A stretch of 64,000 nt of DNA from Azolla caroliniana (taxonomy: Eukaryota; Plantae; Polypodiophyta). The notes under the pieces are model-generated. The model saw nothing but the letters and a program-made list of their open reading frames with translations, was not told the origin of the DNA and searched no databases. The position numbers and the translations under genes were made by a program. Location of the stretch: assembly GCA_043228905.1 (NCBI GenBank), contig JBHGNT010000018.1, positions 14,756,001 through 14,820,000 of the forward strand, in the 5' to 3' direction. This document shows positions 4,225 through 59,662 of the stretch, piece by piece; position 1 is the first letter of the stretch; each line of letters begins with the position of its first letter.

Positions 4225-4385
4225 ATAAACCCTAATTTCCTTACGGAAACCAAAAACCCTAATTTTCCCTACGGAAACCAAAAACCCTAAATTTCCCTAC
4301 GGAAGCCAAAAACCCTAATTTTCCATACGGAAGCTATTGAACTCATAAACCATAATCTCTTATCAAAGCCAAAAACCCTAAATTT
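4225..4385 (+). repeat. Tandem ~28-29-bp repeats containing telo-box AAACCCTAA within the gypsy LTR
   Basis: Repeated GGAAACCAAAAACCCTAATTTTCCCTAC-like units. Confidence 0.8.
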
Positions 4386-18914: not shown

Positions 18915-19960
18915 CCCCTCTTCCGAAATTCACCCGTAGGGGTCTTCGAGTTTCAGTTGAGCAGATCATGTTGTCATCCATGTATACGATATTTTGTCGG
19001 ATCGCCTCTCGAAGGCTCGCACAATCCCTTCTCATGTGGTCCATGCTATCACACCACACACATCTAAAGGGTTCTTTTCCTTTGGAGCCCTGACGATTCA
19101 TGATGGCTAGCGTGACCATCTTGAACTTCTTCGCTAGCTTTTCGATGATGTCGTCATCAATCTTCTTTACTTCCGGGCGACTTTGTTTGGGCGGCTCATC
19201 TACTTTCGATTGTCATGTTTTCTCCGCGACAGTCGATCCCGTGAAGTCGGTGTCATCAACCCACTAACAACGCTTGTCAAGCCTATTGCATGCTTGCTTC
19301 AACGCAACCCAGTTCACCACAAGCCCGTTCGCTTGGGTATCATCTTCGAGGAGAGTACCAAGCTCTCGTCTATCCTTTATATCTATAGCCTTTAGGAAGT
19401 ACAAAGTTTTGTCCTCCTCAAGTAGCACTTGGTCTGTGGTGGGGAGACGACGAAACATTTGGTCGAATTCATCGTACACCCTTGAGGCACTCATCTTCTT
19501 ATTCTTCTTATTCTATCCACTTCATCAAAGCATGTCGAGTCATCCTCGACAAATCTTCCGTCGCGAACTCCGCTAATATCGCTTTCTCGAACTCCAACCA
19601 CGTTGTGTTCCCTTTTTGAAGCTTGATGACACGCCTTTGGATGTTGTTAGCGATCACTCTCTTGAAACTTGTGATTTGACGCGCTTCAGACACGTCCCTT
19701 TGATTCATCTCCCTTTTGTATGCATCAGGGAAATTCGTAATGTTCCTTCCGTCAAATTGACCCTTGAGCTCAACGAGATGGTCGACAACCTTCTCCATGC
19801 TCGCATTATTGTCTCGAGATCTCATCATTTGTTCGATGATCAACATTCTCCTTTCGAACTCTCCTGTTTGATTGCTTGAGGACACCATTTCCAAGTATCG
19901 GTTGATCCTCGATTTGATCCTTCCTACCGCCTCTTTCACATTGGCTTCACCACTTAATTA

Positions 19961-21066
19961 TATCGTGAAGATCCGTCACTATGTGCGGATTGCGAGGCGG
20001 AACCACCGGGGTCCTGAACCGGAAGGATTCGAAGTTTGCACTAGTTTAGCAAGAAGTATTTAAGATAGATTGAAAGAGAGAGATTGATATGGCGAGAGAG
20101 AGAGAGATAGAGAGAGAGAGATTAAGATTGAACCCTTGACTTTAGACTTAAGAAACAAGATACACCATCAATTAGTTAACGAATTTTCTTCCTCTTAATT
20201 TCTTGATTAATACATCGCTGCCTTTTGTCTTTTTCATCCACCCTTTTATAGATGCTCCCATGCATATGATGCATGTGAGGGTACAAAACATGCATACAAT
20301 GCATGGAATGCATGTGATGCATGTTTGCTATTTGGCGCTCATGCACCACATGTCACTCAATTAAGCTCTAATATGAGAATTTGCATGTAAAACTATAATG
20401 ATAGGAAAAAATATTTCTAAGGAAATGACATAGTGTAGTGGTAACTCTATTGATTTCTATCTTGGAGGTGCAAGGTTCAAGTCTTGCTTACATCCCTTTT
20501 TAAGCACAAAATACTATTAGGCTTTTGGACCAGATATCTTTAAAACACCATGCACTGTGATCAACCGACACGACCAATCCGTCTCATTTGCATCCGTTCG
20601 GTTTGGCCCGGTTTGGTCCGCATCCCGAGGTCGCCGGATGTCGGATGCCATCACCGTCCGGTTCCGTCGCCGTCCAAAACCAATGGACTTGGCTACATCC
20701 ATTCGTCAAGTCATTTAACTCATCCTTTCTATTCTCCAGACATAGACACAAAAATAATAGCTTTTGCTCTTGCTTATATATGGTGAGATCCTTATTTGTC
20801 CTGTTTATGTGGGATATCTTATAGTTTATCTTTCTCTTTTCCTTCTCAAACTTCACGTTCACATAACTTGACACTAATTTGTCCATTTCACATGTAGTAA
20901 AATTCATTCGGAAGATCTTGAAGACCTCCATCTTCTCTTACAAATATATTAAGCTGATCTAAAATAGTATCTTCTCTATTATTGTTTTATGTCTCGTGTG
21001 AAGAACCGCACGTGATTTTGTACGTTCCATGCAATTTTCACACCGTTGCCGAAAATCTTCGCGACA
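19961..21066 (-). repeat. 5' LTR of gypsy copy 1 (~1106 bp)
   Basis: Homologous to 22223-23346. Minus-strand TATA (CTATAAAAGG) near 20243-20252. Ends ...CGACA. Confidence 0.9.
20424..20501 (+). other. tRNA-like Pol III cassette inside the gypsy LTR U3
   Basis: A-box TAGTGTAGTGG (20431), B-box GGTTCAAGTC (20474), partial acceptor stem, then a T5 run. Confidence 0.6.
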
Positions 21067-23346
21067 CCGTTCTAGTAGCTTCATTTTTATCTTTTCCGAC
21101 TCTAATTCTAGCCGTTGCAGCATAGTGCATTGCATCCACATGAGTCTCCTCAGCATCTTCCATAGATTTCTTCATTCCCCCTCTTCCGAAATTCACCCGT
21201 AGGGGTCTTCGAGTTTCAGTCGAGTAGATCCTGTTGTCATCCATGTATATGATATTTTGTCGGATCGCCTCTTGAAGGCTCACACAATCCCTTCTCATGT
21301 GGTCCATGCTATCGCACGACACACATTTAAAGGGTTCTTTTCCTTTGGGGCCCCGACGATTCATGTTGGCTAGTGTGACCATCTTGAACTTCTTCGCTAG
21401 CTCTTCGATGATGTCCTCATCAATCATCTTTTATTCCGGGCGGCTTTGTTTGGGCAGCTCATCTACTTTCGATTGTCATGTTTTCTCCGCGACAGTTGAT
21501 CCCATGAAGTCGGTGTCATCAACCCACTAACGACCCTTGTCGAGCCTATTGCATGCTTGCTTCAACGCAACCTAGTCCGCCACAAGCCCGTTCGCTTGGG
21601 TATCATCTTCGATGAGAGTACCTTGTTCTCGTCTATCCTTTATATCTATAGCCTTTAGGAAGTACAAAGTTTTGTCCTCCTCAAGTAGCACTTGGTCTGT
21701 GGCGGGGAGACGACGAAACATTTGTTCGAATTCGTTGTACACCCTTGAGGCGCTCATCTTCTTATTCTTCTTTTCTATCCACTTCATCAAGGCATGTCAA
21801 GTCATCCTCGACAAATATTCCATCGTGAACTCCGCTAATATCGCTTTCTCGAACTCCAACCACGTTGTCTTCCCTTCTTGAAGCTTGATGACACGCCTTT
21901 GGATGTTGTTGGCGACCACTCTCTTGAAACTTGTGATTTGACGCGCTTCAGACACGTCCCTCTGATTCATCTCCCTTTCGTATGCATCAAGGAACTTCGT
22001 AATGTTCCTTCCATCAAATTGACCCTCGAGCTCAATGACACGGTCGACAACCTTCTCCATGCTCGCATTATTGTCTCGAGATCTCATCATTTGTTCGATG
22101 ATCAACATCATCGTTTCGAACTCTCCCGCTTGGTTGCTTGAGGATGCCATCTCCAAGTATCGGTTGATCGTCGATTTGATCCTTCTTGCCGCCTCTTTCA
22201 CGTCGGGTTGACCACTTAATTATGTGGTGAAGATCAGTCACTAGGTGCGGATTGTGAGGCGGAACCACTGGGGTCCTGGACCGGAAGGATTCGAAGTTTG
22301 CACTAGCTTTAGCGAGAAAGGATTTAAGATTGATTGAGAGAGAGATTGAGATAAGATAGAACACTTGACTTTAGATTGAGAGAGATTGATTGAACTCTTG
22401 ACTTTAGATTTGAAGAACAAGATTGATACATAATTTGGATAATGAATTTCTTACTTTTAATTTCTTGATTAATACATCGCTCCCTTTTAATCTTTTTCAT
22501 CCACCCTTTTATAGATGCTCCCATGTATATGATGCATGTGAGGGTACAAGACATGCATACAATGCATGGAATGTATGTGATGCATGTTTGCCATTCGACG
22601 CTCATGCATCACATGTCACTCAATCAAGCTCTAATATGAGAATTGACATGTAAAACTATAATGATAGGAAAAACTTTTTTTAAGGAAATGACATAGTGTA
22701 GTGGTAAGTCTATTGCCTCCTATCTTGGAGGTGTAGGGTTCAAGTCTTGCTTACATCCTTTTTAAAGCACAAAATACTAATAGGCTTTTGGACCAAATAT
22801 CTTTAAAACACCATGCACTGTAATCCGTCTGATTTTCATCCGTTCGGTTTGGCCCGGTTCGGTCCGCATCCCGACCGGATCCATTGTTGTCCGTCACCGG
22901 ATGCCGGACCTGTCGCCGGTCTCGCCGGCCCCGTCGGTTGACGTCGTCGGATCCGTCCAAAACACATAATTATATGCATTTAGCTACATCTATTCATTAA
23001 GTCATACAACTTAACCTTTCTATACTCCATACATAAACACAAGGATAATAGCTTTTGCTCTGTCTTATGTATGGTGGGATCAATATTTGTCTTGTCTATG
23101 TGGGATATCACATTGTTTTATTTTTCTCTTCTTCTTTGCAAACTTCATACCCACATAACTTGACACTTAGATGTATGTTTGTTATGGAGTAAAGTGCATT
23201 TAAAAGCTTTTCAAGATCTCCATCTTTTTGTACGAAGATATTAAAATTATTTACATTATTATTGTTTTATATTGTGTGAAATGAACTACACTCGATTTTG
23301 TACGTTCCATGCAATTTTCACACCGTTGCCAAAAATCTTCACGACA
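21067..23346 (-). mobile_element. Ty3/gypsy copy 2 (same family as copy 1): 5' LTR 22223-23346, Trp PBS and gag; interrupted by copy 1
   Basis: Gag ORFs 21797-22201, 21572-21790 and 21038-21427 are homologous to 19508-19939 and neighbours. PBS TGGTCAACCCGACGTGA at 22198-22214. Confidence 0.9.
22687..22763 (+). other. tRNA-like Pol III cassette inside the gypsy LTR U3 (second copy)
   Basis: TAGTGTAGTGGTAAGT ... CCTCC/GGAGG stem-loop ... GGTTCAAGTC ... TTTTT. Confidence 0.62.
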
Positions 23347-24555
23347 ACATAACTAGTCATGTCTTGTGACTTGATCATTTTTGAAACGATATGTAATCAT
23401 TAGTAAATGCGTTAGTCTATTTATGTACTCTTTGAGACGAAATTCTATTATCAAACCCTTGAAAACTTTGTATTACTAAGTTTGTGTAAGTATTATGATC
23501 CTTCAAGTGCTTGGAAATTGATCTTTTCCATCTCCCTTGAAAAAGAAAAGGAGTTCTAAATGAAAACTAGTTGACTCTCACATTGAATCCACTTATCCCC
23601 CAAAACCTCTTGCATATGCATCAATGCATATGATCTTCCATTGGAATAATATCATGCTTTTCATAGAAAACCACTTCACAATGATATCCTTCTCACTATC
23701 CGCGATTTTATGTTTGTGCATTGAAAATAGGATCATCATGTCTTGGTTGCATTCCATGCACAATCTAACCTCTTTTCCATTACATCGAGTGTCGTGTATG
23801 ACATTTGACCGGGATCTTCCTTCATAAGTTAAAACATTATATATACTAACCTTTTTAGGTTGCCATCTATATGTATCCTAAATATTCTGATTCACCTATG
23901 CTTTCTAACAACCTATAGTTTGTTAGGAATATGTCCCTCCTATGGGAGGTGCCGACTGGTTGGATAGAGAGCCGACAGTCGAGGACAAGGGGTAGCCGAC
24001 TAGTCTGGTTGAGAGTCGATAGTCGAAGACATGGAGAGTCGACTAGGAGAGTTGAACATATAAGAGATCCAAGTCAAAGACACAACCGATTAGTTGGGCC
24101 GACCAGATGGTCGATGACAAGGCCGACTAGTCGAGCCGACTGGACAATCGACATAAGAGTCGGGTAGTCGAAAAGACTAGACGACCAATCAAATGAATAA
24201 TTGTTATTGTCATTAGTATAGTAATAGGAATGAAAGTAGTAGAGGCCACATTTGTAAATAGCCATATTGTGTATAAGTATAAATACACTTAGGGCAAACA
24301 TAGAGATGTAGAAGTAGAACAATAGATACAAATTAGAGTTTCTGTAGCAGAGTGTGTGGGAGAGACCGACGATTAACTTCAGTGAACCTGTTAAGAACCC
24401 TACGTAGTAATCCACTGAGTATCAGAGAAGAGTTGTAACTATTCTTGTATTCTCTAGTATAGTGGAAGATCAATTTTCCCGTTGTCGGGTTGTTGCGCTC
24501 TACGCGTGTGGAAAGAGGCGGGACCGCGGGGGCCTAGTACCAAGGAGCGAGAGAA

Positions 24556-24593
<38 letters not shown>

Positions 24594-25048
24594 AGCTTGC
24601 AGAAACACAGAGGGAGAAAGAGAGGGAGAACAATGTCTTAATTATAAATCAATAACGATTACAACCGGCAAGCCGGGACAGACCCCACTTAGGCGAACAC
24701 ACACACACACACGATGCTCACGCACGCACACCGCCTGACTGTACAGTGGAGCCTTTGCGCCATTGCAACCTTGTTTTCATCAATTTATTCTCTGTCCTTT
24801 CGGGCAGAGATACTCCTTGATTTCCTAGACATTCAATGCGTCACATCTAGTCTCTTTGCTCCCACCGTCCTACTCGTAGTTATTTACAAGGTATCAATTG
24901 GTGTGGGAAAGTGCAAGCCCGGGTCATGCACCTTGCTTCGCCGATTCCGCTTCTAGCCGGTTTTCTTCACGACATCCGCCCCCACTAAACCGCGCATCCA
25001 CCAGTATGCACTGGAGAGGGACAGATACCATAGAAAACCGGCTCGCGT

Positions 25049-28000
25049 TCACTCGTCGCCCTCCGGACTATCGACATCCCTAAACCGATCGTCATCGTTA
25101 TCGCTCCCCCGATCTGGCTCGTCTACGTACCGCTTCTTGAATGCTTTAATCCGCTTCCCGGCTACCGGCACCGCCAATCGTGTCCCGTCGAGCTCTGCAA
25201 GATGGTATGTGCCGTTGTCGTTCGTGCTCGTCACCGCATAGGGCCCGAACCATTTCCGGGCCGCCTTGTGCTGGTTGTCGAGGTTGCTATCGTAAATCAA
25301 CACCCTGTTGCCTTCCTCGATCTTCTGTGGTCGTAGCCAGTGCGTCCTATCGAACCGGGCTTTGTTCAGTTCCCTTGTTGCGCGCAAGTTCTCCTTTGCC
25401 CATTCCACATCCTTCGGCCTCTGCTCAAGTTGCCGGATCCGTGCCGCCAACAACTCGTCCCGGCTCATTTCGTTCTTCCAGCCCACTGCAGCCCACGAAG
25501 AAATTGTCGTTCCACCGGCATGACCGGCTTTTGCCCGTACATTAGTTCCGCCGGCATGAACCCCGTTACCAAACTGTGCGTCGTCCGGTCCACCCACAAC
25601 GCATAGGGTAAGAGCCGCGGCCAATTCCCGACTTGGCCTCACGCCCGTAGTGACGCTTTGACGATCGGCCCGTGTCTGTGTTCCACCTTCCCGTTAGCCT
25701 CCGGATTGTACGCTGTGGTGAGAGAGAGTTTAACCCCTAGCCAGTCAAATAGCTCTTCCGCCTCTTGTGCGTCCAATTCCCCACGGTCGGCCACGATCTT
25801 ACCGACGCACCCGTACCGGCATACCACATCTTCGATTAGAAACTGGCACACGACCGAGGTCCTTTTGTTCTGCAACGCTCGGCCTTCCACCTAGTTCGTC
25901 AGGTCCTCCCGAGCCAGCACCATATATCGCATCTGCCCTACCCCCATCGGCATTGTCACCAGATCCACCATCCACTTGAAGTGGACGGTCGGAGGGTAGG
26001 GCGGGTGAAGCTCGTCTCGATGTCGGACTATGGAGTGCATCTGACAGCTTTCGCAAGTCGTCACAAACCGAGGCACGTGCCGGTATAGTCTCGGCCACCA
26101 GTACTTCCCCTTCAACTTCTCGAATGTGGCCCATGTCCCGTGGTGTCTAGCCCAAGGGCTGTCGTGATATGCCGTAAGCAATGCTCTCTACTCGTCTTCC
26201 CTCGCCACGTGGAGTGGGGTGCCGCTACACTTCTTTGGATGCCTCCATATGCATCCTCCTCGTAGGAAGAACTGGTACCCTTCTTCCGCAGCCGATTGGC
26301 CTCTTCTCTAGTCCACGTCGTGTCCGACGTCGTTGTGCGTAGGAACCTTCCTATCTGGATCCACTCCCCGTCGTGTTCGCTCTCATCGAACTCGTTAAGC
26401 GCCGGAGTGCTCCCCGTCCTAGTTGCCACGTTAGTTGACCCGAAGAAGTCCTCGCCGACTTCCTCGTTATCCGAAACCATGCCGTCCTCGTCACTGAACC
26501 TCGCCCTTGAAAGCATAGTGACCATGGAATTATCCTTTTCGGAGATGTGCCGTATCTCCGGGTTCAGGGACTTGATGTATGCGATCCACCTGAGCATCGC
26601 CAGGTTCGGAGTCGCACATCTGGAGACCATACCTAGAATCGGTAGGCAGTACGTCTCGATGATCACTTCCGTCCTGATCAGATAGTCCTTGTCGGCTTTG
26701 GCTACCGAAACGATACCCCATAGCTTGCGTTTAGCTTGGGCGTATCCTCGCTGCCGCTTGCTCAATACCTTCGCCCCGAACCGGATCGGGAACCGTACAC
26801 CGTCCTTGTCCTCCTGACTGATCACCCACCCGATCCTAGTCGGGCTCGTGTCCATCGTCACGTAGATGGGGACTTCCTTGCCGTAAACCGCTTTCCGGAG
26901 AGCCGGTGCCACGGCGAGCGCCTCCTTCAGTCTCCGAACCGCCTCTGTGTGCTCCATCTTCCTCTCAAACCTACGCCCTTTCTTCAATAGCCCTTAGAGC
27001 GGTTCCGCGACATGTGCGTAGTGCGGAATCCAGATATGGTAGAACACGCACACACCCAAAAATCAGCGGACCTCAGTAACTGACTCGCAATCGTCCTTCA
27101 TCACGGAGATGGCTTCTACCTTTGCCGGGGACGGTTTCCGGCCGTAGGGCCGGTGACCGATTACCAAGATCTCCGTCTGCCCGAACGCTGATTTCTCTTT
27201 AGAGAAGGTGAGCCACATGCTCTCGAGCCTCTGCAACACCTTCTTACCGTCGTTGATGTGGTTCACAACGAACCTCCGGCATCCGTCCGGCCCAACCGTA
27301 TCGTCCGCGTCCTCCACCGGACACCCCTTTATCGGTACGTCGTCGAGGAATGACATAGTGATGTTCGGGATGTAGTCCCTTAACACCTTGTTCATCGCAT
27401 TCACCATGTGCGCCACCGAATTGGTTCCTCCTTGCGGTAGGGTACAAATCCGCACCAAGCCGAGAGGAGTCCACATTGTCGTGATGTCCCTGCTCTCTAC
27501 GGCTCGTTGGAACTGGTCGTACCCTGAGTATAAGTCACCGACCGAATAGATCGACCTCTCCGCGAAGGCCTCCGCAAAATCGTCTATGGTCGGCCCGATT
27601 CCTGCGTTACGGATGGTCACCTTGTTGACCGGTTGTAGGTTCTGTACGAAGCGCAACGTGCGGTTCTTCTTTGGCACCGTGAACCACTGATTCGAGTATG
27701 GGGCACTCGACGGTTCAAGGATACCCATATCCACCTTCTGCTTCAGTAGCTCCATCAACATCGGGATGTGAGCTCTGGGCACCGGAATTGGCTTGAGATT
27801 CCATGACACATGCGGTACCGTGAAGATCACCATTGGCTCGACGATGGTCGGGTCTACGCACCCGATCTCCTCCGGCGAGAATGCGAAGGCCTTCCTGTAC
27901 CTCCCGAGCATCCTCTGAAACCGATCCTCCTCCTCCGGCAGTAGAAAGCCAACCCCACCAACCTTGACCTCCCGTAGTGTTATGTCGGTGAACCGGTGCC

Positions 28001-29021
28001 CTATGCCGGCTGGATTTTGTAAACTTGTGTCCGACGCGACCCCCTTTATCGGCTCTCCGCTGCCCTCCGGCAAGGGTGCCGCAACTGGCCTCACCTTCCG
28101 GTCCACAGTCTTGTACTTTGTATCCACGCGGGCCGTTCGATCCGGCCCGATCCTCTCCCCGAAGTCCGCGATGACTTCGTACATACCCGTCGAGCTAACC
28201 GGAACGGTCCGGTCTTCGCTAAGGCCTTTACCGACCACCTCTCGTAATTCGCACAAGATGTCGTCAAAAGAGACCGCCTCCACGGCACCGCTAATTTCTT
28301 CGTCGAGGGAGAGGACTCCACACTCCCTAAGTCGTCTCTCTGCCTACTTCCTCTCTTGGCTACTGATGCCGATTAGTGTCCAACCTCCGTTTTCGGAGAG
28401 CCAAAATTTCCTACCTATAATACATGTGTGGGGTCTTCCGGTGTCGCGTTGTTACGCGCGTGCGTGTAGAATGGGCAGGACCACAGGGGTCTCGGACTAG
28501 GGAGTAGAGGAGAAAGAATAAGATATGATATGGAGGCTTAGCTCAAGAGGAGAAGAGGAAAGAATAAGACCATGATATAGAAGGAGAGATCGGCGGAGGC
28601 AATATGCTCAACAAGTTATATTAAAACAAACGAATGGTTACAACAATGGTGGCCACATGGGCCGCACCAAACTTATGAGAAAACCCTAACCGGGGATGAA
28701 CAAGGAGACCCTAAACGAAACCCTAACCCTAAAATGGTAAGAACTCTACACTAAGTGGTATACCTTTCATGCGTAAAATAGGCAACCCCGTCATAAGTGA
28801 CCCCTCCCTTCCTTTTATAGCCCAAGGAGGGAGGGACCTTACAATGTGGGACAAAAATTTCCCCTCTCTTTCTATACACCATATCCTAGTATACATGTGC
28901 ACATGTTGCACACCACCGACTTGCCCTTTCCACCCCAGTTTCCGCCTATGGATGAAAATCTTCACGACACTGGGGTGTCCGGACTATCGTGGCTCCACGT
29001 CTTGATAGCCCTTTCTAAAAA
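25049..29021 (-). pseudogene. Gypsy copy 3 pol (RT-RNase H-integrase), degenerate and interrupted by a solo LTR
   Basis: ORFs 27063-28283, 26112-26987, 25891-26181, 25639-25890 and 25049-25642. Confidence 0.9.
28442..28969 (-). mobile_element. Solo LTR of a related gypsy (528 bp)
   Basis: TGTCG...CTTCACGACA, the same terminus as the other gypsy LTRs here. 4-bp TSD CCGG/CTGG, telo-box repeats and a minus-strand TATA near 28815. Confidence 0.88.
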
Positions 29022-31142
29022 TTCCCTCGGCTGTCGGCGCCGAGGGTCTCACGGTTTCGCTTGTGGTTGGGTCGCACTGTCATGAATTGTACGGAATGCC
29101 GACCGTCTTGGCTCTTGACGCGTGCATACGCTGAACAGTTGTCCAGTACTTTCGTCTCTGCGTGCTGTCGTAATGTACGGTTCGCCAAGAATTACCGGGT
29201 GCGAGGAAGTCTCCTGCACGAAGAAATGATGATCTATCTCGACGTCGCCGATCTTCACGCGTACGTTCGGGCACGCACCATGCAACTCCTCTGTAGCGCA
29301 CGTCGCCGCGCGTATCTTCCACTCGTGCTTGGTGTTGATCGGCCATTTCCCCTTTTTATAGAAATCCATGAACATCAGGTTAATCTCTGAACCATGGTCT
29401 ACCAATGCCACCACCGGCTCCTGGACGTCGCCGATCTGAACAGGGATTTCTGTAGGGGCCCTAGCCTAATGCGGCTTGGCGTAGTGGTTTTTCGCCAACT
29501 CATCCTCTAGGGCCATGTCTTCTAAGTGCGTCGTCCGCACTTCCACCGGCCTCTTCAGTTCCGGCTCCGTCGAGAGCCTCTTCCGCTTTACCAAGTCCAC
29601 GATGGAGTCGTGGAACTCCTTGGCGATTCCTAGCACCTCCCGTAGTGACAGCTCAACCTTACTGTCGAGAATTCTCTCTTCTAGGACCTTCCACAGGTCC
29701 ATTGTTCGGTCGATTTCGGTGCTCAGTCGGAAGTCAACCTGCTTCTTTTTCTCTGGCACGCCGTCGTTGGTGGCCTCATTTGTCTTCGGTCCAAATCGGG
29801 TCTCGTAGCGCTGCGAGTGCCCGGCCCCTCCGGCCTTTCCCGCGCGCTTGTCTTCTACTAGAACCTCGTAGTTCTAGCATGCGGCTGCAAAAAAGCCAAT
29901 CTTTTCTTCCATCGGGTCGTCCCATCCGGTGCTCTCCTGGATCCGCTGTTCCGCGCAGTTTGCCTCTTCCTTCTTCAGCCGTACTCTGGAGAGACCCTCT
30001 AGCACCAGCGGCTAGAATCCAGAGTCCTTCGCTTTCTGGGCCTCATCATCCCCGACCCGGAATCCTGCCGACGTCGAGTAGGTAACGGCCTGTGCATGTT
30101 GTGCCACGGCCTCTTCCATCAACCGCTTCATTCCACCACACGCCGTATTCAACTCTAGGGCTTTCCGGGTCTTGCTCGCGTGCACCCACCCATTCCAGAG
30201 GTACACCACGTCGGTCCCAAGCGCCTCGGCGAAATCCGCGCATTCTTTCCGGATGTGGCCAACCGCGTCGCACCACATGCACCGTTGCCCCGCCGGCGGC
30301 CTTCGGTCACGAGACTGTTCGCCGTTGTCCCTCCGGGCCTGTGCGATTTGGAGATCTCGCACCATCTGCGACAGCTCTTCAAGAGTCGCGCCTCCAGAGG
30401 GACCTTTGACCACTCCGCTTCGGGTTGATCCCGTCTAAAGCCAACTCCAAGTTTCTTCCTTCCTAGTCGGTACCGACACCGGCTCCTCGAGCTCCCTCGC
30501 TGGGACCGGCCTTGCCGCCAACGAGCCCTCATCGCTCCACTCACGCTGCTTGTCGAAATGACCGCAGACCCTCCTTACCATGGCCCAGTCTGCCGTGAGC
30601 CCTTCATCCGTTTCCAACAGGAGACCCACCTTCTCCCGGTCCATGGTGTCCACTGACTTGACGAATAGTAGAACCCGACTTGTGTCGAGCATGGTCCGGT
30701 CCAATGTTGACAGCCGTGCGAACCGTTTCTCGAACTCTTGGAGGAGAGCTGACACGTTCCTCCCCTTCCCAAGGCTCTCAACCCACGTCATGAAGTCTCG
30801 CTTCGACAACCGGAGCGAGTCATCAAACCCATACATCTCGAGGAGCCGCAACTCAAACTCCTCCCAAGTCTGGCACTCGGCCAACACCTCGAGCACCTCT
30901 GCGTGGATGCTCGGCGTCAACACCGGAGGGAATCTGGACATCTGCCTGTTCACCAAGATATTCCTCATGATCATTTCGGCCTGGTAGGCCTCCAAGTAGG
31001 TTGTGGAATTCTTCCCACCGAATCGACCTATGGTGCCGATGATCAACTTAATGGCCCTATCGAGGGCACCCGTTCCCTCGCAAGTGCTCACTAGCCGGTC
31101 GACGGCTACGACCATAGCTTCAGCAAGCTCGGATCCCCTCAT
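29015..31142 (-). pseudogene. Gypsy copy 3 gag-protease, degenerate
   Basis: ORFs 30435-31142, 30012-30413 (CMWCDAVGHIRKEC), 29466-29759 and 29049-29414 (ALVDHGSEINL). Confidence 0.9.
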
Positions 31143-31165
31143 CCTTCACTCCTTTGCCGCCTATC

Positions 31166-31182
31166 TCACGTCGGGTTCACCA
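31166..31182 (-). promoter_or_regulatory. Primer-binding site complementary to tRNA-Trp(CCA)
   Basis: TGGTGAACCCGACGTGA is complementary to the plant tRNA-Trp 3' end ...TCACGTCGGGTTCACCA and lies 4 nt from the LTR. Confidence 0.88.
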
Positions 31183-31259
31183 AATATGTCAGGTTGTTGC
31201 GCTCTACGCGTGTGGAAAGAGGCGGAACCGCGGGGGCCTTGTACCAAGGAGCGAGAGAA

Positions 31260-31297
<38 letters not shown>

Positions 31298-33720
31298 AGC
31301 TTGTAGAAACACAGAGGGAGAAAGAGAGGGAGAACAATGTCTTAATTATAAATCAATAACGATTACAATCGGCAAGCCGGCGACAGACCCCACTCAAGCG
31401 AACACACACACACACGATGCTCACGCACGCACACCGCATGACTGTATAGTGGAGCCTTTGCTGGAAGCACACGGGTTGTCCATGAAGCAGAGGCAACATA
31501 GGCCGAAATCCTGTAGAGAGAGATGAACAATGGAGGAGAGAGCTTGGTCCCGGTCCGACAACACTTCGTCCTCGCTCCCCAAAACGCGATTTTTTTCATC
31601 CACCTTCTTCCTTCCCTTTTATAGGCCGTCGAGGCACGCTATTGCACCCTTGTTTTCATCAATTTATTCTCTGTCCTTTCGGGCAGAGATACTCCTTGAT
31701 TTCCTAGACATTTAATGCGTCACATCTAGTCTCTTTGCTCCCATCGTCCTACTCCTAGTTAATTACAAGGTATCAATTGGTGTGGGAAAGTGCAGGCCTG
31801 GGTAATGCGCCTTGCTTCACCGATTCCGCTTTTGGCCGGTTTTCTTCACGACACCGTGGATTTCCCCATTTAGGGTTTCCACGTAAAACTGTGTGCATTG
31901 CATATTCTTGTTAGTTTGTTGCTTTCGGTTTTGAATTGTGTATTCTGCATATCTTTCTCACAGATATTCGATTACATCCCAACAAACTAGTATCAGAGCT
32001 TGAGGTACAAGCATGGAAGGAGGTGTGAGTGGGTTCCCAAGTATGATAGTTCTAAACTCTCAGAACTATGTAGACTAGAAGATGAAGATGTAAGACCTTC
32101 TCATAGTTAAAAGACGTGTATGAGCCCATCGACAGAGTAGAAATATACATGGGGGTATTAGAGTCTAAATGGAAACTTCTGAATAGAAAGGCGGTGGCCA
32201 CCATCAGACAACGCGTCGATGTAAGTGTCCTTGTCCTTCAGCATGTGGCGAATGACACAAATGCCCACGAGATGTGGCAGAAGCTGTCAGGTCTATATGA
32301 GAGGAAGAACGCCCTCAACAAAACATCCTTGATGAGAAAGATTGTGAGGTTGATGTATAGGGACGGAGAAAGCATAGTGGAGCATGTAAGCACATTCATG
32401 GGGTATGTGAACCAGCTTGCGGCCACCAAGTTTCCTCTTGAGGATGGAATGCATGCCATTCTACTACTGTGTACCCTATTGGACAGCTGAGAGAATGTTG
32501 TGGTGACTCTTAGCACCTAGTGTCAAGAAGAGAACTTGTCTCTACAAGTGGTAAAGACAAGCATCTTGAACAAGGAGACAAAAAGGAAGGACAAGAGTGT
32601 CCTGTCTCAGTTGGAGTCAAACTTGAATCAACATACTGGCACAGGAAGGAACCGACAAAGAAGTCCACAAAGGAGGGACAAACCTCATGCCAAGTCCAAG
32701 TCTAGAGGCAAACTAACATGCTTCTATTGTGGAAAGTGTGGACACTTCTAAAAGGACTGCCAACACCTTAAGAAGAACAAAGGTGTCGGTAATTATGTCA
32801 AACCCAAGAAGATTCCTGATGAAAAGGGCACATCAGTCGTAGCTACATGTGTAGAGGAGATCCTGCTCATTTGTGAATAGGCAAGCAAAAATCTTGCAAG
32901 TGAAGAGTGCACATGGGTGATTGACTCTGGAGCATCATTTCATATAACTCCCTCGAGAGAATGTTTCTCGACTTACATAGCCGGTGATCATGGCTATGTA
33001 AAGATGGGAGATAACGGAGAGTGCAAGATAGCTGGCATAGGAAGTGTAAGCCTGATGATGTCGACAGGTTGTCGACTGAACTTGAGGGAAGTTCGACATG
33101 CCCCAGATATTAGATTGGATCTGATATAGATTGGAAGGTTGGAAGATGAAGGCTATAGTGGTAGCTTCCGAAATGGAAACTAGAAATTCACCCGTGGAAA
33201 CCTCATAGTGGCCCGAGCACAGAAAGAGGGCACACTGTATATGATGCATGCCCGACTGTGCAAGTTGGAAGCAAAAATGGCAACTGACTCGAGTGGAGAG
33301 TTATGGCATAAAATGCTAGGTCACATGAGCGAAAAAGGAATGTATATCTTGGCCGACTAGGAACTTCTCCTAGAAGGGAAAGGAGTGCAATTGGAGAAGT
33401 GTGTTGATTGCTTAGTCAAAAAGTAGAACAGAGCAACATTCCACACAAGACCACCGAGAATAAGAGAAGTGCCACTGGAACTGGTACACACCGATGTGTG
33501 CTATGTAGATGCTCCATCGCACCGAGGTGGAGAGTACGTCGTGATGTTCATTGACGACTATAGTCAGAAGACATGGGACTTCGTACTGAAGTCAAAGGAT
33601 CAAGTACTGTCAATGTTCAAGGAGTTCTAGGCAAGGGCTGAAAGAGAGTCAGGTCGGAAGTTGAAGTTGTCCGAAATGATAACGGTGGCGAATATAGAGG
33701 GTAGTTCGAAGAATACTGCT

Positions 33721-35350
33721 TGAAGGCCCAACGTATTTGAATCGAACCTTTCAACACACATGCAAATGGTGTTTGACAGATCATCAATCATCTCTGTCTC
33801 ATTTGAGTATTAACACATTTGCGTTCACAAGAGGAAGGATCACGCACAAATGGAAGGATAAGGAATATTCCGTCTGATTTTGGGGCTTTTTTGGCCATTT
33901 CACAAAACACCTTGATACCAGTACTACATGTTCTCAAAAACTTGATGAAAAAGCCAAACTTTTCACCATTTGGTAAAATTGAAAAATGCCAACTTTTGGC
34001 CAAATACGAAAAGAAACTTTGTGTATTTTTAAGGAGAAATTACAACTAGTAGTATTTTAGATCCTAATGAAATCATAAGCGAAAGATTTCAAAATAATCA
34101 ACTTTTTTTTTCCCAAACAAAAACTCCTTCCATTAGTCAACTTTTTTATTTCATTCGATAAAATGTTGTCTAAATTTCTTACATATTGTTGCACAAAAAA
34201 TACATTTAGGAGTTATTTGCATCACCATCATCATTCCTTTCATGAGAATCACGACTATAGCTAATATACAATTGTGACTCTTCCTCCTCATTTTCAAATG
34301 TACCAATCAAATCATTGTCTTCACTAAATGGTGTCTCCAAATTGTGTGCACTAAATCTTGTTCGCCTTCAATCAGAGATATCTTCTAGTCTTGGTAATAT
34401 CTTTTTTATTATGTCTATCGTTGTTGTCCTTAAACATCCAACTTTTGTCAGTGTAAAGTCATACACAATGATATCCACCTCACTAATGTCAATGATAGAT
34501 GTATTACAAAAGTTTGATGCATCACCACATCCAAAACTTTACCAATGCAGAATTAGTGCCCTAGGTCATGGCCATCTACATGTGTAGCTATTAATATCCC
34601 CACCTTGAGTTCTTGCAAGTTTCCTTGTCACCTGAGTTATGCTCGTGTTGTCATCCTTAGTTCCACATAAATGTTTCTCTCTTGTACATGAACCAAACTA
34701 TGAAGATCAACATTAAGTGCTTGAAGTGGTGATTAAGAACCACGAGAATATTTTGCAAGGTTGAATTACCATCAACACAATTATTAATGGTTTTTTGTTA
34801 ATCAATGAAGCACATGTTCACCATAAGGTGTCTTGTTGTGCAACATACTTCTTTGTAGCATCGATATGCATCTTTTCTCTTGGAAAAATAGAGATTTTAG
34901 TACAATTTGAGTTCATGTAAACCCTAAACCTCTTTTATTTGAAAAAAAAGAAGATTTCTAAACATGAACTCCATACATTGTATCGAGTTGATGTAAAAAC
35001 CAGAGTTTTGATCACAATTAAATACAATGTATTAAATTCATGTTCAAAGTTTTTTTCTCAGATTTAAAAAAATAAAAAAATAAAAATAGAGCTTGAGTTG
35101 ATGAAAAAACTAGTTTTTTCACCATAATTCAATACAATGTATAAAGTTCATGTTTAAAGTAATTTTTTAAAATTGTTTTCAATTTTTTTTCAAATATTTT
35201 TGAATTTTTATTTTGGGAAAAAAAACTTTAAACATGAATTCGATACATTGTATCGACTTGTGATGAAAACTCTAGTTTTTTCATCACTTCAAAATTAAGA
35301 AAAAAACAAACAAAAGACCCAAAATAAATAGAAAAAAAGAAAAAACTTTA
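33721..35350 (-). other. AT-rich remnant, possibly of a DNA transposon: decayed minus-strand coding fragment plus nested inverted repeats
   Basis: Minus strand ~34206-34620 gives ELKVGILIATHVDGHDLGH*FCIGKVLDV and IIVYDFTLTKVGCLRTTTIDIIKKIL plus an acidic tail. Palindromic AACATGAA..ATACATTGTAT repeats at 34900-35300. It truncates copia D on the left and the copia C LTR on the right. Confidence 0.4.
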
Positions 35351-39889: not shown

Positions 39890-40283
39890 TGTTACCGGCC
39901 GGCAAAGGAGTCCAAAGTGGGAAACGGGGAGTTATTTAAGTAGTAGGAATGTGGTTGTAATTAAGTTATGAGTGTGGACGGACGGACCGGAATCAGATGG
40001 CACCGTTTTGTAATACAGGCCGGAAACCTATTTAAAGGCCCGGATACAATGTAATGAATAGCGGTTAATTAATAAAGCTTAGTGTTGTTATCTCTCTGTG
40101 TTAATTGCCGTTCTGCCTTAATTGTTATATCTTACGCGTGTGATTATGAAAGACGATCATGCTAAGTAACTTAATTAAGTCGGATTAATCGTTGAGTCTA
40201 ATCCTGCTTCCGTAACACCCTTTGGTGAAGTGTCTTCCGTAGACACCCTGTGTTAGGCCATTGTCCGGCCCTAAGAGTTAACA
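39890..40283 (+). mobile_element. Solo LTR X, copy 1 (394 bp)
   Basis: TGTTAC...GTTAACA. Flanks ATATT and CTCCT. Inverted repeat of 40718-41151 with a 40-bp deletion. Confidence 0.9.
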
Positions 40284-40717
40284 CTCCTCATCCGGTTCTC
40301 ACCAGGTCTGCACCATCCGGCTCTCCGTAGCCAGGTTCTCCTCATTCGGTTCTCACCGGGTCTGCGCCATCCGGCTCTCCGTAGCCGGGTTCTCCTCATC
40401 CGGTTCTCACCGGGTTTGCACCATCCGGCTCTCCATAGCTGGGTACTCGTCATCCCCTTTCGGCCTCGGCCGAGTTTGCTCGTCAGCATTGTTCTTCTTC
40501 CTTCTCATCCGGAGGGACATGTTTCCTAACAAACTCCCCCTTCACTCTGGCATGGGATGTCTTACTAGTCCGACTCGCTTCCGGCATGCATCCAGGTTGT
40601 CGGGTATCAATACTTTGGTCAGCATATCTGACCCGTTCTCGGCCGTGTGGATCTTCGTCAACGCGAACTCCTGGTCATCTACTCTTTCCCGGATCCAGTG
40701 ATACCTTTGCTGAATAT
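40284..40717 (-). other. Inverted segment: copia C RNase H end, PPT and first part of the 3' LTR
   Basis: The minus strand reads IQQRYHWIRERVDD...HPMPE, the PPT GAAGGGGGAGTT and the LTR start TGTTAGGAAAC. This continues the + strand TKHI at ~39889. Confidence 0.95.
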
Positions 40718-41151
40718 TGTTAACTCTTAGGGCCGGACAATGGCCTAACACAGGATGTCTACGGAAGACACTTCACCAAAGGGTGTTACGGCAACAGGAT
40801 TAAACTCAACGATTAATCCGACTTAATTAAGTTACTTAGCATGATCGTCTTTCATAATCACACGCGTAAGATATAACAATTAAGGCAGAACGGCAATTAA
40901 CACAGAGAGATAACAACACTAAGATTTATTAATTAACCGCTATTCATTACATTGTATCCGGGCCTTTAAATAGGTTTCCGGTCTGTATTACAAAACGGTG
41001 CCATCCGCACCTGTTCGGGATCGGTCCGGATCCGGAACGGCATATCGATTCCGGTCCGTCCGTCCACACTCATAGCTTAATTACAACCACATTCCTACTA
41101 CTTAAATAACTCCCCGTTTCCCACTCTGGACTCCTTTGCCGGCCGGTAATA
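40718..41151 (-). mobile_element. Solo LTR X, copy 2 (434 bp), opposite orientation
   Basis: Reverse complement of 39890-40283. Flanks AATAT and AGGAG. Confidence 0.9.
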
Positions 41152-41659
41152 AGGAGAACCCGGCTACAGAGAGCCGGATGGTGCAGACCCGATGAGAATC
41201 GGATGAGGAGACATACTCGTAAATATGTTTCTGAGAGTTCATCGTGGCTATATTTGTAAATACCTGAAAAGTCATATTAGTATAAATATGACTTAGGGCA
41301 AACTTTTGATTGTGTGGTTGTGATTCTTGTTGGTGCAAGAAGAGAGAGCACGTAATAGTGTACAGAGAGAGAGAGAGAGAGAGAAACAAACGAAGAGTTC
41401 GCATCTGTTCACATCTCTATTGTAACCGCCGACAGTGGCGAAGATAGCAAGCTCAAGATTGTTGCCTCGGTGCTCCACCATAGTTTGGAGTCTGTGGAAT
41501 CCTGTGGTTTTTCCCTCTAAGGGTTTTCCACGTTAACACCCTGTGTACTCTTCTCTCCTTTGTGTCGTGCATTTTTTTTTTCATTTCCCATCTTTTGTGT
41601 ATGATTCTAGGCTCGGTTGAGGCCGAGTGTTGCGCATACGGAGCGTGTAGTTCTTGTCA

Positions 41660-43741
41660 AATACACCGCCGTGCTCTACCCACCCGAAGCTCAGCTTCCA
41701 CGCCAGCAATTGGCGCTCCCCGCCCCGCCCCCGAAACATAAACGATGCCGCACGTTGCCTCACTAGGAGTGGACTTAGGCTGAGAGCCCTGTAGGATCAA
41801 CAACTCACGGAGGGGATTCACACTCCGAGGACGAGTCCAGGAGACACCAAAGCTCACCTCTCCTCGCCCTGATCAAAACACGAGCACACAGGTTGCAACA
41901 CCTCGCTCCGGAGGACCACAACTGAAACGCGGCCATGAGGAAACATCCTCACCTAAGCCAGATGCCACAAAATGCCACCTTACATACCAGGACTACGCCC
42001 ATCAACTTGACCATTTGGGAGCGACAACAACTTTGTTGGTAGCACCAGATATGACACTCGTGGTCGTTCCTGGCCACACCAAAAAGGGCGAGGCGTCGAA
42101 ATTTTCTGAAGACGACGTCTTCACGCTGCGAAACATGCTTGCCGAATATTTTGAACTAGGCGCTTTATTGCAACATGGCACGACATACTAACTCATTGAT
42201 TTCCTGGCCAGATTATAAGTAGCTGTTGCGGCCCGGATGGCGCAAGAAGATGCCGAGCAACAAGTAATTGAAAGGGCCCTTGATAATGAGCCTGCTTCGG
42301 ACGACAAGCCGAAACTCCAAAAAGTCAGCAGAAAAAGGGCAACAAAGAAATGACACACCCGTATTGAGCTCCCTAAGCTCAATACAACATTAGTCGAAAA
42401 TTACAGAGAGCTCGACCACGTAACACGCATGGCTAAGGATATGGCCGCAAACATTAAAATTGCTCGTCAACAGGCCAAAATAGCAACAGAGCTTTGGTAG
42501 AATTCGGAAACGCAACGAGCCGAGTTAGAGCAAAAGCTTGGTGTGGTGCCTCTCACACCAGCACCAACTCTCCCACCCCCTTCTTCAGACCAAACAACAG
42601 AAACGGAGCCCCCCGCACGACAGCAGCAATGGCAACCCAGACATCGCCCACAACCTATTTCAAATTGGTAGGCACACAAACAGAGGCCGACGACGCCACG
42701 ACGATATAAAAACTAGAAGAAGACATCATCACATACAAAGCCATCGCCAATAAAGCCAAAGAACAGCTGGACGAAGCTTGTAAAGCCACTGATCAATGTG
42801 AAGTGGCGCTCAGGAAAACCATCGCGGAACAAAGCGCGCAAATGCGGGATGCGGATGCCAAAGTCATGACCGCGATCTCATCATTTCAAGATATAGCGAC
42901 AACGTAGATCACGGTGGTAACAAAAGAGCTGAAAGAAATGCAGGCAACGTCAGCTATGTTTTTGCAGAAGTTTGAAACAACCGAAAAGGAGTACTCACGT
43001 CTATACAATGAGCTCCTCGAATATCAAATGACAACTATCTTAGAACGCAAGGCTAAGCACAAAAAGCACATACAGGCCTTAGACGACGCCTGCGCCGAGT
43101 TCAGCCACGAAGTCGACAAGATAACGGCGGAAACAGAAGCCAGGGTTTAATCAATGAACACAACATATGAAGTAATTGTGACCCAATTACGGCTAGAACT
43201 CGAGCAAACTAAACAAGATAACTTGGCTCTTCAAGCATTGCACGATGAAAGGGAGAACCGAACCAACACATTGGTTATGAAGCAATGCCAGAAATTGAAT
43301 CGCAAGATCGACGACACGCTCGACGCCGGATGGAAGAAATGGTCGGCTCAAGCAGCCGAATTACAAGTTTTACGGGTGGACGCCAAGAATCGTCAGAAAG
43401 AAGGCAAAGGATTTTTTAAAATGGACAAAACGAGCATTGGTATGATCCGAGAAGACCTCGAGGAGGATTTCTATGCCCTCGCCGATGGCCACACAAAAGC
43501 CATTTCCGTGCTCCTGGAGGAATTCAACGACGATCAGATGGTGTTGCTGATCGCCGCTGAGCAAGCCATGGACATTACACCAACCGATAGCGACGAAGGA
43601 CCAAGCAAACTAGTTATAGGCACCTCCCTGAACGATCAGAGCAACGAGCCAAGGGACGAAGGAAGCAACGATGTATGGTCTGAACCAGAGACCGTAACAG
43701 AACCAGCGGAGGGCATCCTCCACATCCTCACGGAGGATTAA
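41660..43741 (+). pseudogene. Degenerate Pro-rich and coiled-coil ORF, antisense to the adjacent Tat-like LTR element
   Basis: ORFs 42914-43150 and 43154-43741 share a frame and are rich in E/K/Q/L heptads. Upstream PPEAQLPRQQLALPAPPP. The 5' part is cut off by copia C. Confidence 0.65.
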
Positions 43742-43817
43742 TTGTCCTTTAGATTTTCTTTTCTTTTTCGATTTTGAATTTTGTGTTTTTTTGTGCGTTC
43801 GACATGCCACGACACTG

Positions 43818-44342
43818 CCCCACGGGCGTGCTAGGTGTTGTTTGTGGGACTAAAAATGTAATATCATTTGGAAACCGTATATGTAAATACCTAGAAAGAA
43901 TCCTAATACGAAAAGTAGGTAAAAGTAGGTAAACGAGTCATACGCAGCCGAGGAAAGAGTAAGTACACGCGCCAAAGAAGTTGAAGACAATAAACTATAT
44001 AAGAGAAGAAGTTGAAGACAGTAACAGAGATATAGAAGGATCAGAATAGAATCAGACATATAGTCTAGAGTGACAGAATTAATCCGGCATATAGCCGTGA
44101 GCATGTAATTCATGATCTATTTAATATAACAGAGTTGGGTTTTGATCTGTGTTTTCGTGGTATTTCCGTAATGCCACAGAGTGAGTTTTTCTATTTCGTG
44201 CACTAAGTACTGTGTTTCATCGGTGAAGGTGTTGTAAACTCCTCGCCATTTATCAAGGGTAACTTGGGGACTACTTGTACCACGTCTCTTGGTCCGATTC
44301 CAAGCAGGGATCAAAGGTGTTGCTTCCAGATAGGCGGTAACA
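43818..44342 (-). mobile_element. 5' LTR (43839-44342) and tRNA-Arg-like PBS of a Tat-lineage gypsy
   Basis: Minus-strand LTR TGTTAC...GTCCCACAAACA followed by TAGCACGCCCGTGGGG, resembling the Arg(UCU)-type PBS TGGCACGCCCGGTGGGA. Copia sequence resumes at 44343. Confidence 0.65.
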
Positions 44343-44603
44343 CATAGTTGTTTATATGATCAATAGGTCTCCCTCAGTACCATTGAAAGGTGATTTCCCA
44401 TAGAGGGTGTAGACCGGAAAGGAAGTCTCCTACCGACACCTGAGGGTGTTCGGACATTTGGTGTATATGTATGTGGCTAAAGATCGGAGGTTGAAGCTCG
44501 ATAGTAAGTCGAAACCATGCATATTCATGGGGTACTGGAAGTATGAGTTCAGCTAAAGGTTGTGGGACTTAGTCAATAAGAAAGTAGTGAGGAGTTGGGA
44601 CGT

Positions 44604-45410
44604 TGTCATGCCTTTTGGCACCGGATCGTTGCGTGAGTCGGGTGGAAACCGTTGAGGTTATAGACTAGGAGGAGGAGAGTTTTAAGGCTAATAAGAATAT
44701 GAGTATATTATAAGAAAGAGATAAGAAAAACCTTGTAAATCCTACAAGTGTATTGTATTATATTATTCAACGCTTAGAATTCTAATAGTAAATTGGATTA
44801 GATTAGAAAAGATAGATCGAAAATTGGGAATTCCCGAATTTAGTCAATTAGATCAATATTTAGAACCCCAAATCAACAACAACCCTTTACAATTTGCTCC
44901 CCTATCCTTATATAGTGATGGGAGAGTCTAAGTTTACCACATACAAGCATCATGCCTTTTCTAACTCTAGTGTACATGCACACTACATGTCCATCATTAA
45001 CTTTTCCCATCATGCTTTTGCTTTAACTCAAGTGTTCATGCACACTACATGTCCATCATTAACTTTTCCCATCATGCTTTTGCTTTAACTCAAGTGTTCA
45101 TGCACACTACATGTGCATGGTTAGCTTTTCTATCGCAGTTTTTCATTTAACTCGAGTGTGTATGCATGAATAGCTTTTTCTATCATGCTTATCTAGAATA
45201 TTTACATGGGATAAAGTTTAGTATAACTTAAATACTCATAATGTGCTAGTATAATGGAAAGGCTTGAAATTGTTAACATGGAGGTATAGGGTTCAAATCT
45301 TGCCCTATGCATGTAATATAATTATTTTAGTATTTTCTCCTATTTCTTTATACTTAGTCAATTGGATACTCCACACATATTTTACGTAGTGAACAAAGTA
45401 CACTATGACA
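44604..45410 (-). mobile_element. Solo LTR (807 bp) with a 4-bp TSD
   Basis: TGTCAT...ATGACA. TSD ACGT (44600-44603) and ACAT (45411-45414). The host frame WDV|VFLEDK is restored on removal. ~62-bp tandem repeats at 44950-45190. Confidence 0.88.
45240..45305 (+). other. tRNA-like A/B-box remnant in the solo LTR
   Basis: TAGTATAATGG at 45247 ... TGGAGGTATAGGGTTCAAATCTTGC, similar to TGGAGGTGTAGGGTTCAAGTCTTGC in the gypsy copy 2 LTR. Confidence 0.55.
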
Positions 45411-59660: not shown

Positions 59661-59662
59661 CC

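What the first reader, a model, noticed from the sequence alone, without database searches (positions are those of the whole stretch)
20424..45305. tRNA-like Pol III cassette embedded antisense in the U3 of gypsy LTRs
Seen: three LTRs from two otherwise dissimilar LTR families (20424-20501, 22687-22763, 45240-45305) carry an A-box (TAGTGTAGTGG / TAGTATAATGG) and a B-box (GGTTCAAGTC / GGTTCAAATC) at tRNA spacing. They share TGGAGGT..AGG-GTTCAA.TCTTGC. The first two also show a partial acceptor stem and an immediate T5 run (a Pol III terminator), and copy 2 has a CCTCC/GGAGG stem-loop. In all three the cassette sits upstream of the minus-strand TATA and points away from it. Established analogy: Cassandra TRIMs carry 5S rRNA Pol III promoters in their LTRs, and tRNA genes act as chromatin barriers. 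Inference: a captured tRNA or SINE head kept as an insulator or divergent promoter.
Basis: partly seen in the sequence, partly recalled or inferred. Interest (0 to 1): 0.72.

Follow-up and report, generated by a model that had tools for sequence, protein, structure and literature searches.

The report
Backward tRNA promoter in retrotransposon LTRs
A clade of plant jumping genes carries, in its end-repeats, a worn tRNA-gene copy that faces away from the element's predicted promoter and keeps its two RNA polymerase III boxes better than the DNA between them, so it likely still recruits that machinery and would help keep the promoter open, although no binding or transcript has been shown.

Summary
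The three sites are the only strict A-box/B-box pairs in the window (44-nt spacing; 0 in 100 shuffles). They lie antisense in U3 of Phygy-like gypsy LTRs. The cassette is not a tRNA: ARAGORN and Rfam find nothing and the cloverleaf is lost.

Of 20 related LTR loci found with a motif outside the cassette, 16 keep a gap-free 53-nt cassette, 3 are broken and 1 lacks it. It is therefore an inherited LTR part, not a stray SINE. Box positions change less than the spacer (p about 0.03-0.04) but no less than the TATA-side U3. Only 4 of 20 keep both boxes perfect, and sister elements lack the cassette.

New here: a 3' hairpin with double changes, a TATA-like motif at -25 to -30, and a decayed B-box motif on the other side of the TATA.

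Best reading: a captured tRNA/SINE head under moderate selection as a TFIIIC/Pol III module that helps keep the promoter open (0.5); passenger 0.3. It differs from Helenus/Cassandra in being antisense and in protein-coding elements. The scan noted LTR-borne tRNA boxes before in fungal-type genomes, not this cassette.

The parts
20424..20501 (+). tRNA-derived cassette, copy 1 (A box 20431-20441, B box 20474-20483, T5 20497-20501)
22687..22763 (+). tRNA-derived cassette, copy 2 (A box 22694-22704, B box 22737-22746, hairpin arms 22731-22737 and 22750-22756, T5 22759-22763)
45240..45328 (+). tRNA-derived cassette, copy 3 (A box 45247-45257, B box 45290-45299, hairpin arms 45284-45290 and 45304-45310, first T4 45325-45328)
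20394..20399 (+). TATAAT at -30 of cassette 1, near the place of the plant tRNA-gene TATA motif (copy 2: 22657-22662)
   Evidence: PMC3082873 passages
19961..21066 (-). LTR1: 5' LTR of a Phygy-like gypsy element, inserted into the gag of a member of the same family
22223..23346 (-). LTR2: 5' LTR of the interrupted member
44604..45410 (-). LTR3: solo LTR inside a copia integrase region, target duplication ACGT/ACAT
20243..20250 (-). predicted Pol II TATA box of LTR1 (LTR2: 22506-22513; LTR3: 44906-44914); assigned by motif and position only
20251..20423 (.). conserved TATA-proximal U3 block rich in CATGCA/TGCATG repeats (8 in 172 nt; window mean 1.2 per kb)
20124..20186 (-). second, decayed B-box-type motif downstream of the TATA, element-sense (LTR2: 22389-22446); B box broken here, intact in L005, L015, L016, L012, L021
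22199..22214 (-). primer-binding site 8 nt after LTR2 (LTR1: 19937-19952); read as tRNA-Trp type from recall
   Evidence: Phygy PBS type in PMC6317226 supplement
21041..22150 (-). broken gag of element 2 (78% to P0003 over 370 aa)
18898..19888 (-). broken gag of element 1; continues at 13214-12552 and, as protease, at 7198-6554 beyond two nested copia elements

Best explanation
An ancestor of this gypsy clade likely captured a tRNA gene or tRNA-derived SINE head back to front in U3, and the A and B boxes are likely kept by moderate selection as a TFIIIC/Pol III module that would hold the neighbouring Pol II promoter open against silencing. Shown: the cassette, its position and orientation, its spread across subfamilies, loss of the cloverleaf, better conservation of boxes and spacing than of the spacer. 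Inferred: TFIIIC binds the boxes; TFIIIB loads on the TA(T/C)AAT at -25 to -30, in the stretch between cassette and Pol II TATA; Pol III makes a short antisense RNA ending in a hairpin and a T run; the bound complex acts as a nucleosome-free barrier. It is helpful, not essential: sister elements lack it.
For: Only 3 strict box pairs in 64 kb, 0 in 100 shuffles. 16 of 20 loci found by an outside motif hold the cassette; in 16 intact rows (14 loci plus copies 1 and 2) there are 0 gap intervals in 53 columns against 21 in the 181 upstream and 9 in the 40 downstream. Parsimony steps per column on 19 rows: 11 invariant box positions 1.00, 45 other cassette positions 1.82 (p 0.029), 23 AT-flank positions 2.00 (p 0.044). 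Contigs of four runs laid on copy 2: 0 of 11 invariant positions and 14 of 49 others vary at 10% or more in X1 or X2 (p 0.039); A-box variation sits only at positions 9, 11, 12, 15 and strong B-box variation only at 59, 60. Deep pairs: L006 vs four others, boxes 9-10/11, spacer 13-14/33, upstream U3 73-83%; copy 3 vs copies 1, 2 and L001, boxes 11/11, spacer 19-20/33. TA(T/C)AWW at -25 to -30 in 18 of 22 rows. Barrier precedent: PMC2040200 abstract.
Against: Boxes are no better kept than the TATA-side U3 (0.97 steps, p 0.61). Both boxes are perfect in only 4 of 20 loci; B box intact 11, C56 to T 5, broken or absent 4. L002, L004, L008 with C56T group together in the tree, so a lineage may have multiplied with a damaged B box. 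In the laid contigs C56T (4-11%) is within the range of some non-box C positions. The first T4 run lies 12-62 nt after C61 in 12 of 18 rows and is not in the stretch examined in 6. The sister element with gag, protease, RT, RNase H and integrase regions at 24.5-31.9 kb, the related LTR at 2393 and L007 have no cassette. The p values are marginal, copies are related, and the upstream region is repeat-rich and slips easily. No binding, chromatin or RNA data.
Confidence: 0.5

Rival explanations
1. Neutral passenger: a SINE head or tRNA copy inserted once into an ancestral LTR and is carried along; the boxes look conserved because the clade is young and the cassette sits beside a conserved promoter.
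For: Perfect boxes in only 4 of 20 loci, a C56T subclade, cassette-free relatives, marginal p values. Helenus paper: 'not a few LTRs' in Repbase contain tRNA-like pieces. The second motif has decayed in the window's own family.
Against: In L006 the spacer is about 40% identical while boxes are 9-10/11, the spacing is exact and upstream U3 is 73-83% identical; copy 3 keeps 11/11 where the rest of its LTR cannot be aligned (copy 3 was picked for its boxes, L006 was not).
Confidence: 0.3
2. What is selected is the hairpin (tRNA positions 46-52 paired with 66-72, B box in the loop), acting as RNA or single-stranded DNA in the 3' U3 of the genomic RNA or in a small antisense RNA, not a chromatin barrier.
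For: 81% of cells paired, 9 cells with changes on both sides, 0 of 500 shuffles as high; copy 3 pairs 7/7 with three double changes. Folding z of -2 or lower in 9 of 18 rows.
Against: The structure was read off these same sequences, and related rows inflate the test (tool caveat). Palindrome-templated repair can give double changes without selection (recalled). It does not explain the A box, the 44-nt spacing or the -30 motif. Copies 1 and 3 fold no better than shuffles (z 0.31, 0.13).
Confidence: 0.12
3. Landing pad or Helenus-like promoter: the boxes draw integrases that target Pol III sites, or drive the element's own template RNA.
For: Lead from another scan note (e1-10420520, unchecked); LTR1's element sits inside a member of its own family; Helenus and Cassandra precedents.
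Against: No pile-up of insertions upstream of the cassette in 20 loci; insertion sites follow the NCGN motif; the cassette faces the wrong way to make genomic RNA; U3 has several T4 runs on the sense strand; only a 7-nt word matches the PBS complement, in 3 of 18 rows.
Confidence: 0.08

Closest known systems
Helenus (TRIMp3; Kojima 2024, PMC10886601; parts 1-4 of 6 of the text, searched passages and supplement hits read)
   Same: tRNA-derived sequence in an LTR, conserved around boxes A and B, not a working tRNA, proposed origin by SINE insertion into an LTR.
   Different: Helenus are non-coding TRIMs of 311-1263 bp; in the three LTR sequences I saw in the supplement the boxes are on the sense strand, and the proposed role is to make the template RNA. 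Here the cassette is antisense in U3, in 0.6-1.1 kb LTRs that keep a TATA box, in elements that encode gag (with or without protease), with 4-bp NCGN duplications (plant Helenus 5 bp).
Cassandra and Ajax (5S rRNA-derived LTRs; as described in PMC10886601)
   Same: Pol III-type internal promoter inside an LTR.
   Different: 5S-type boxes, non-coding TRIMs, and for Cassandra transcription from 5' LTR to 3' LTR; here tRNA-type boxes facing outward.
Phygy, non-chromovirus Ty3/gypsy (Neumann et al. 2019, PMC6317226; passages and one supplement row read)
   Same: 4-bp NCGN target duplication; PBS read as tRNA-Trp type; protease region 48-63% identical to Physcomitrium proteins, with Riccia and Adiantum relatives.
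   Different: No tRNA-like LTR cassette in the passages read; no RT tree was made for the cassette-bearing elements; some members are gag-only.
tDNA and B-box chromatin boundaries of fission yeast (PMC2040200, PMC7474672; abstracts and opening text only)
   Same: Box-bearing DNA beside a domain; at cen1 the barrier needs TFIIIC and Pol III and works in either orientation; IR-L/IR-R are inverted B-box repeats on both sides of a domain.
   Different: Host chromosomal elements, not mobile; IR-L/IR-R favour the heterochromatin between them, the opposite of the effect proposed here; nothing shown in plants in what I read.

Membership tests
functional tRNA gene | cloverleaf with paired stems | tested here: not met
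   44.8% of cells paired, 233 of 500 shuffles as high; ARAGORN 0 in window and 21 loci; not among 33 hits at 80% threshold; no Rfam tRNA hit at E 10
type 2 Pol III promoter | A box and B box at tRNA spacing | tested here: met
   perfect in the 3 window copies and 4 of 20 loci; B box intact in 11 of 20
type 2 Pol III promoter | plant upstream TATA (about -34 to -29) and CAA (-7 to -3) | tested here: inconclusive
   TA(T/C)AWW at -25 to -30 in 18 of 22 rows; CAA at -5 or -6 in 8 of 22
type 2 Pol III promoter | T4+ terminator right after the unit | tested here: inconclusive
   12-14 nt after C61 in 4 of 18 rows, 23-62 nt in 8, not in the stretch examined in 6
type 2 Pol III promoter | TFIIIC/Pol III occupancy and transcript | not testable with these tools
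   no ChIP data; no raw RNA reads offered
Helenus/TRIMp3 | tRNA-derived sequence in the LTR with conserved boxes | tested here: met
Helenus/TRIMp3 | short non-coding element (up to about 1.3 kb) | tested here: not met
   LTRs alone are 0.6-1.1 kb and are followed by gag or gag-protease
Helenus/TRIMp3 | cassette oriented to transcribe the element | tested here: not met
   antisense to gag, PBS and TATA
free SINE | dispersed copies outside LTRs with own target duplication and tail | tested here: inconclusive
   no copy outside an LTR in the window and 21 loci; no depth spike over the LTR flanks in X1 (52-84k vs 57-69k) but a 7- to 50-fold spike in X12; no genome held; the TTTTAAG-like repeat around copies 1 and 2 is not in relatives
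Phygy | 4-bp NCGN target duplication | tested here: met
   LTR3 ACGT/ACAT; NCGN at most LTR ends in the loci
Phygy | tRNA-Trp PBS | tested here: inconclusive
   PBS found; its reading as Trp is recalled, no tRNA set was available
Phygy | placement by RT/RH/INT phylogeny | not tested
   no RT linked to a cassette-bearing LTR was found

The most novel reading that the evidence does not exclude
A protein-coding plant gypsy clade brackets its Pol II core promoter with two outward-facing tRNA-derived box modules: an antisense one in U3 that keeps full A and B boxes, an upstream TATA and a 3' hairpin, and a sense one after the TATA reduced to a B box. Together they form a mobile, self-carried TFIIIC boundary pair that shields the promoter from host silencing and scatters thousands of Pol III sites through the genome.
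Probability: 0.2. Interest if true: 0.8.

Novelty: new variant of a known kind. Interest (0 to 1): 0.52.

Why it matters
Small-RNA-derived boxes in LTRs are described as the sense promoters of tiny non-coding elements, and the Helenus paper argues that coding partners must use Pol II and not share such LTR sequence. A conserved outward-facing module next to an intact TATA in coding elements would be a cis-acting way for a plant transposon to resist silencing. It would also give a natural series of intact, mutated and cassette-free LTRs for testing whether tRNA-type boxes act as chromatin barriers in plants.

Tried and rejected
No whole genome is held and the loci's records could not be searched further, so free SINE copies could not be counted. 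ARAGORN and Rfam found no tRNA. Cassette patterns found nothing in viral or prokaryote contigs; gag-protease found nothing in viral contigs. No RNA holder was listed; this says nothing on expression. The LTR1/LTR2 pair alone cannot separate boxes (21/21) from flanks (170/183, 55/57). The apparent acceptor stem and target duplication of copies 1 and 2 are not kept in relatives. Self-priming by the cassette: only a 7-nt match to the PBS complement. Homology of the two motifs is weak: profile of the antisense cassette hits the sense motif at 13-14 bits (reversed-sequence control 8.7), the reverse search gives 8 bits (control 11). Pairing of the sense motif with the PBS was not seen in folds of the two window copies. 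A hairpin in the sister element's U3 (24910-24950) has no boxes at the right spacing and was dropped. Rows dropped: L013 (chance match of the anchor) from all counts; L007, L009, L021 from the tree, with L011, L014, L016 masked after their breaks; L007, L011, L014, L016 and the duplicates L009, L021 from the gap count.
Full report
Setting. The window is a nest of plant LTR retrotransposons. No genome is held. The protease region of the host element has named relatives in Physcomitrium, Riccia and Adiantum, which points to a seed-free land plant.

The observation. All motifs are at the stated places. A strict A box plus B box scan of both strands returns these 3 sites and no other, each with 44 nt from T8 to G53, the spacing of a tRNA with a short variable loop (numbering and box consensus recalled; the Helenus paper gives TRGCY, YGG and GGTTC). 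One hundred dinucleotide shuffles gave none. ARAGORN and Rfam find no tRNA.

The host elements. LTR2 (22223-23346) and LTR1 (19961-21066) are minus-strand 5' LTRs with 12-bp inverted ends, a PBS 8 nt downstream and gag behind it. Element 1 inserted into the gag of element 2, and the two LTRs are 925/1066 identical. LTR3 (44604-45410) is a solo LTR in a copia, flanked by ACGT/ACAT. NCGN flanks most LTR ends in the related loci. Neumann et al. list a 4-bp NCGN duplication and a tRNA-Trp PBS for Phygy, so these are Phygy-like; no RT tree was possible. After the protease, element 1 has a weak 46-aa match to the pre-RT region of the sister element and is then cut. One related subfamily is gag-only. 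A full pol behind a cassette-bearing LTR is not shown.

An unbiased set of relatives. I searched metagenome contigs with a 20-nt motif next to the TATA, outside the cassette, and got 21 loci, one a chance match. Of the 20, 16 hold a full-length cassette at the same place, 3 are broken inside it (L011, L014, L016) and L007 has a complete U3 without it. Some relatives look more tRNA-like than the window copies: L001 and L003 have textbook boxes and the loop CTCTTAA (a Lys-type loop, from recall), and L012 has a 5/5 T stem. None is a tRNA by ARAGORN or Rfam, and the cloverleaf is no better paired than shuffles. A profile search found no copy outside an LTR in the window or loci, and showed that L006 also holds a second LTR of the copy-3 type. 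Contigs of four runs show many copies. In X1 the cassette is no deeper than its LTR flanks, so there is no sign of a large free SINE family there; in X12 it is 7 to 50 times deeper than its flanks, which fits either diverged LTR subfamilies or free copies.

Are the boxes selected? For: on a 19-row tree the 11 invariant box positions take 1.00 steps per column, other cassette positions 1.82 (p 0.029) and the AT flank 2.00 (p 0.044). The 53 columns from T8 to C61 have no gap in 16 rows, against 21 gap intervals upstream and 9 downstream. In contigs laid on copy 2, 0 of 11 invariant and 14 of 49 other positions vary at 10% or more (p 0.039), and A-box changes fall on the R, Y, N and R positions. 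L006 keeps 9-10 of 11 box positions while its spacer is 13-14 of 33 identical and its upstream U3 73-83%. A TA(T/C)AWW motif lies at -25 to -30 in 18 of 22 rows, close to the plant tRNA-gene TATA.

Against: the U3 between TATA and cassette is as conserved as the boxes (0.97 steps). Only 4 of 20 loci have both boxes perfect; C56 is T in 5, three of them grouped in the tree; A14 or G10 is changed in whole subfamilies. The T run is not fixed. A sister element with all pol domains and the same PBS, PPT and TATA context, and a related LTR at 2393, have no cassette. The p values are marginal and the rows are related. The fair reading is moderate selection on a dispensable module.

First, positions 46-52 pair with 66-72, putting the B box in a hairpin loop: 81% of cells pair, 9 change on both sides, 0 of 500 shuffles reach this, and copy 3 pairs 7/7 through three double changes. 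The structure was read from these rows, so the test leans in its favour. Second, a decayed B-box-type motif lies on the sense strand downstream of the TATA. Its B box is intact in 5 of 22 rows and broken in the window's family, and its homology to the antisense cassette is weak. If it is a second tRNA relic, the promoter is bracketed by two outward-facing modules.

Mechanism. Most likely TFIIIC binds the U3 boxes, TFIIIB loads on the motif at -30, and Pol III reads away from the element's promoter into a short hairpin RNA; the bound complex would keep the TATA-side block open. In fission yeast a tRNA-gene barrier needs TFIIIC and Pol III and works in either orientation (abstract), but B-box inverted repeats there can also favour silencing between them (abstract), so the direction of any effect is not given. 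Every functional step is inferred. Rivals are a passenger (0.3), a selected hairpin (0.12), and a landing pad or template promoter (0.08).

Comparison and novelty. Helenus, Ajax and Cassandra are the known LTRs with small-RNA-derived boxes. They are short non-coding elements thought to use the boxes to make their own RNA, so this finding fails membership on size, coding and orientation. Seven full-text searches listed no paper that, by title and abstract start, describes an antisense tRNA-type module in a coding plant gypsy LTR. The library lacks most subscription journals and Repbase notes, and Kojima remarks that many Repbase LTRs hold tRNA-like pieces without describing them. A 2026 sugar-beet paper cites only Cassandra and Helenus/Ajax for such motifs (passages). 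The scan's earlier notes show LTR-borne tRNA boxes in fungal-type genomes (unchecked) and nothing on this cassette.

Verdict. A real feature, a new variant of a known kind, with fair evidence of selection and untested function. Interest 0.52.

Noticed in passing
window 20124-20186 and 22389-22446 (-); L005, L015, L016, L012, L021, L006: Second B-box-type motif 65-130 nt downstream of the TATA on the element's sense strand; B box intact in 5 of 22 rows, A-box-like sequence 45-48 nt upstream in L006 and L016. It also resembles the complement of the PBS over about 10 nt with a 2-nt bulge.
   Followed up: partly
L010:2104-3018 (-): The gag homologue P0006 (681 aa, no Pfam hit) ends about 75 nt before the PPT, so this cassette-bearing subfamily is a gag-only element (like TR-GAG elements, name recalled).
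   Followed up: partly
window 20251-20423, 22514-22686: Dense CATGCA/TGCATG (RY-type, label recalled) repeats between TATA and cassette; the best-covered part of the LTR in four runs.
   Followed up: partly
window 2393-4550 (+): LTR that shares its first 210 nt with LTR1/LTR2 but lacks the cassette; holds a 1.08-kb element with terminal inverted repeats, a direct repeat at its ends and a CT-rich array (about 2613-3696).
   Followed up: partly
window 24483-31853 (-): Sister gypsy element with gag, protease, RT, RNase H and integrase regions, LTRs 94-96% alike, same PBS, PPT and TATA context, no cassette.
   Followed up: partly
window 58953-59684 (-): Endonuclease/exonuclease/phosphatase domain, probably a LINE fragment.
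   Followed up: no
window 34989-35292 and 39996-41005: A 300-nt self-palindromic AT-rich stretch and a 295-nt inverted repeat pair 97% complementary.
   Followed up: no
window 41784-43741 (+): Broken coiled-coil-like reading frames after a copia-type LTR, no Pfam hit for the part tested.
   Followed up: no
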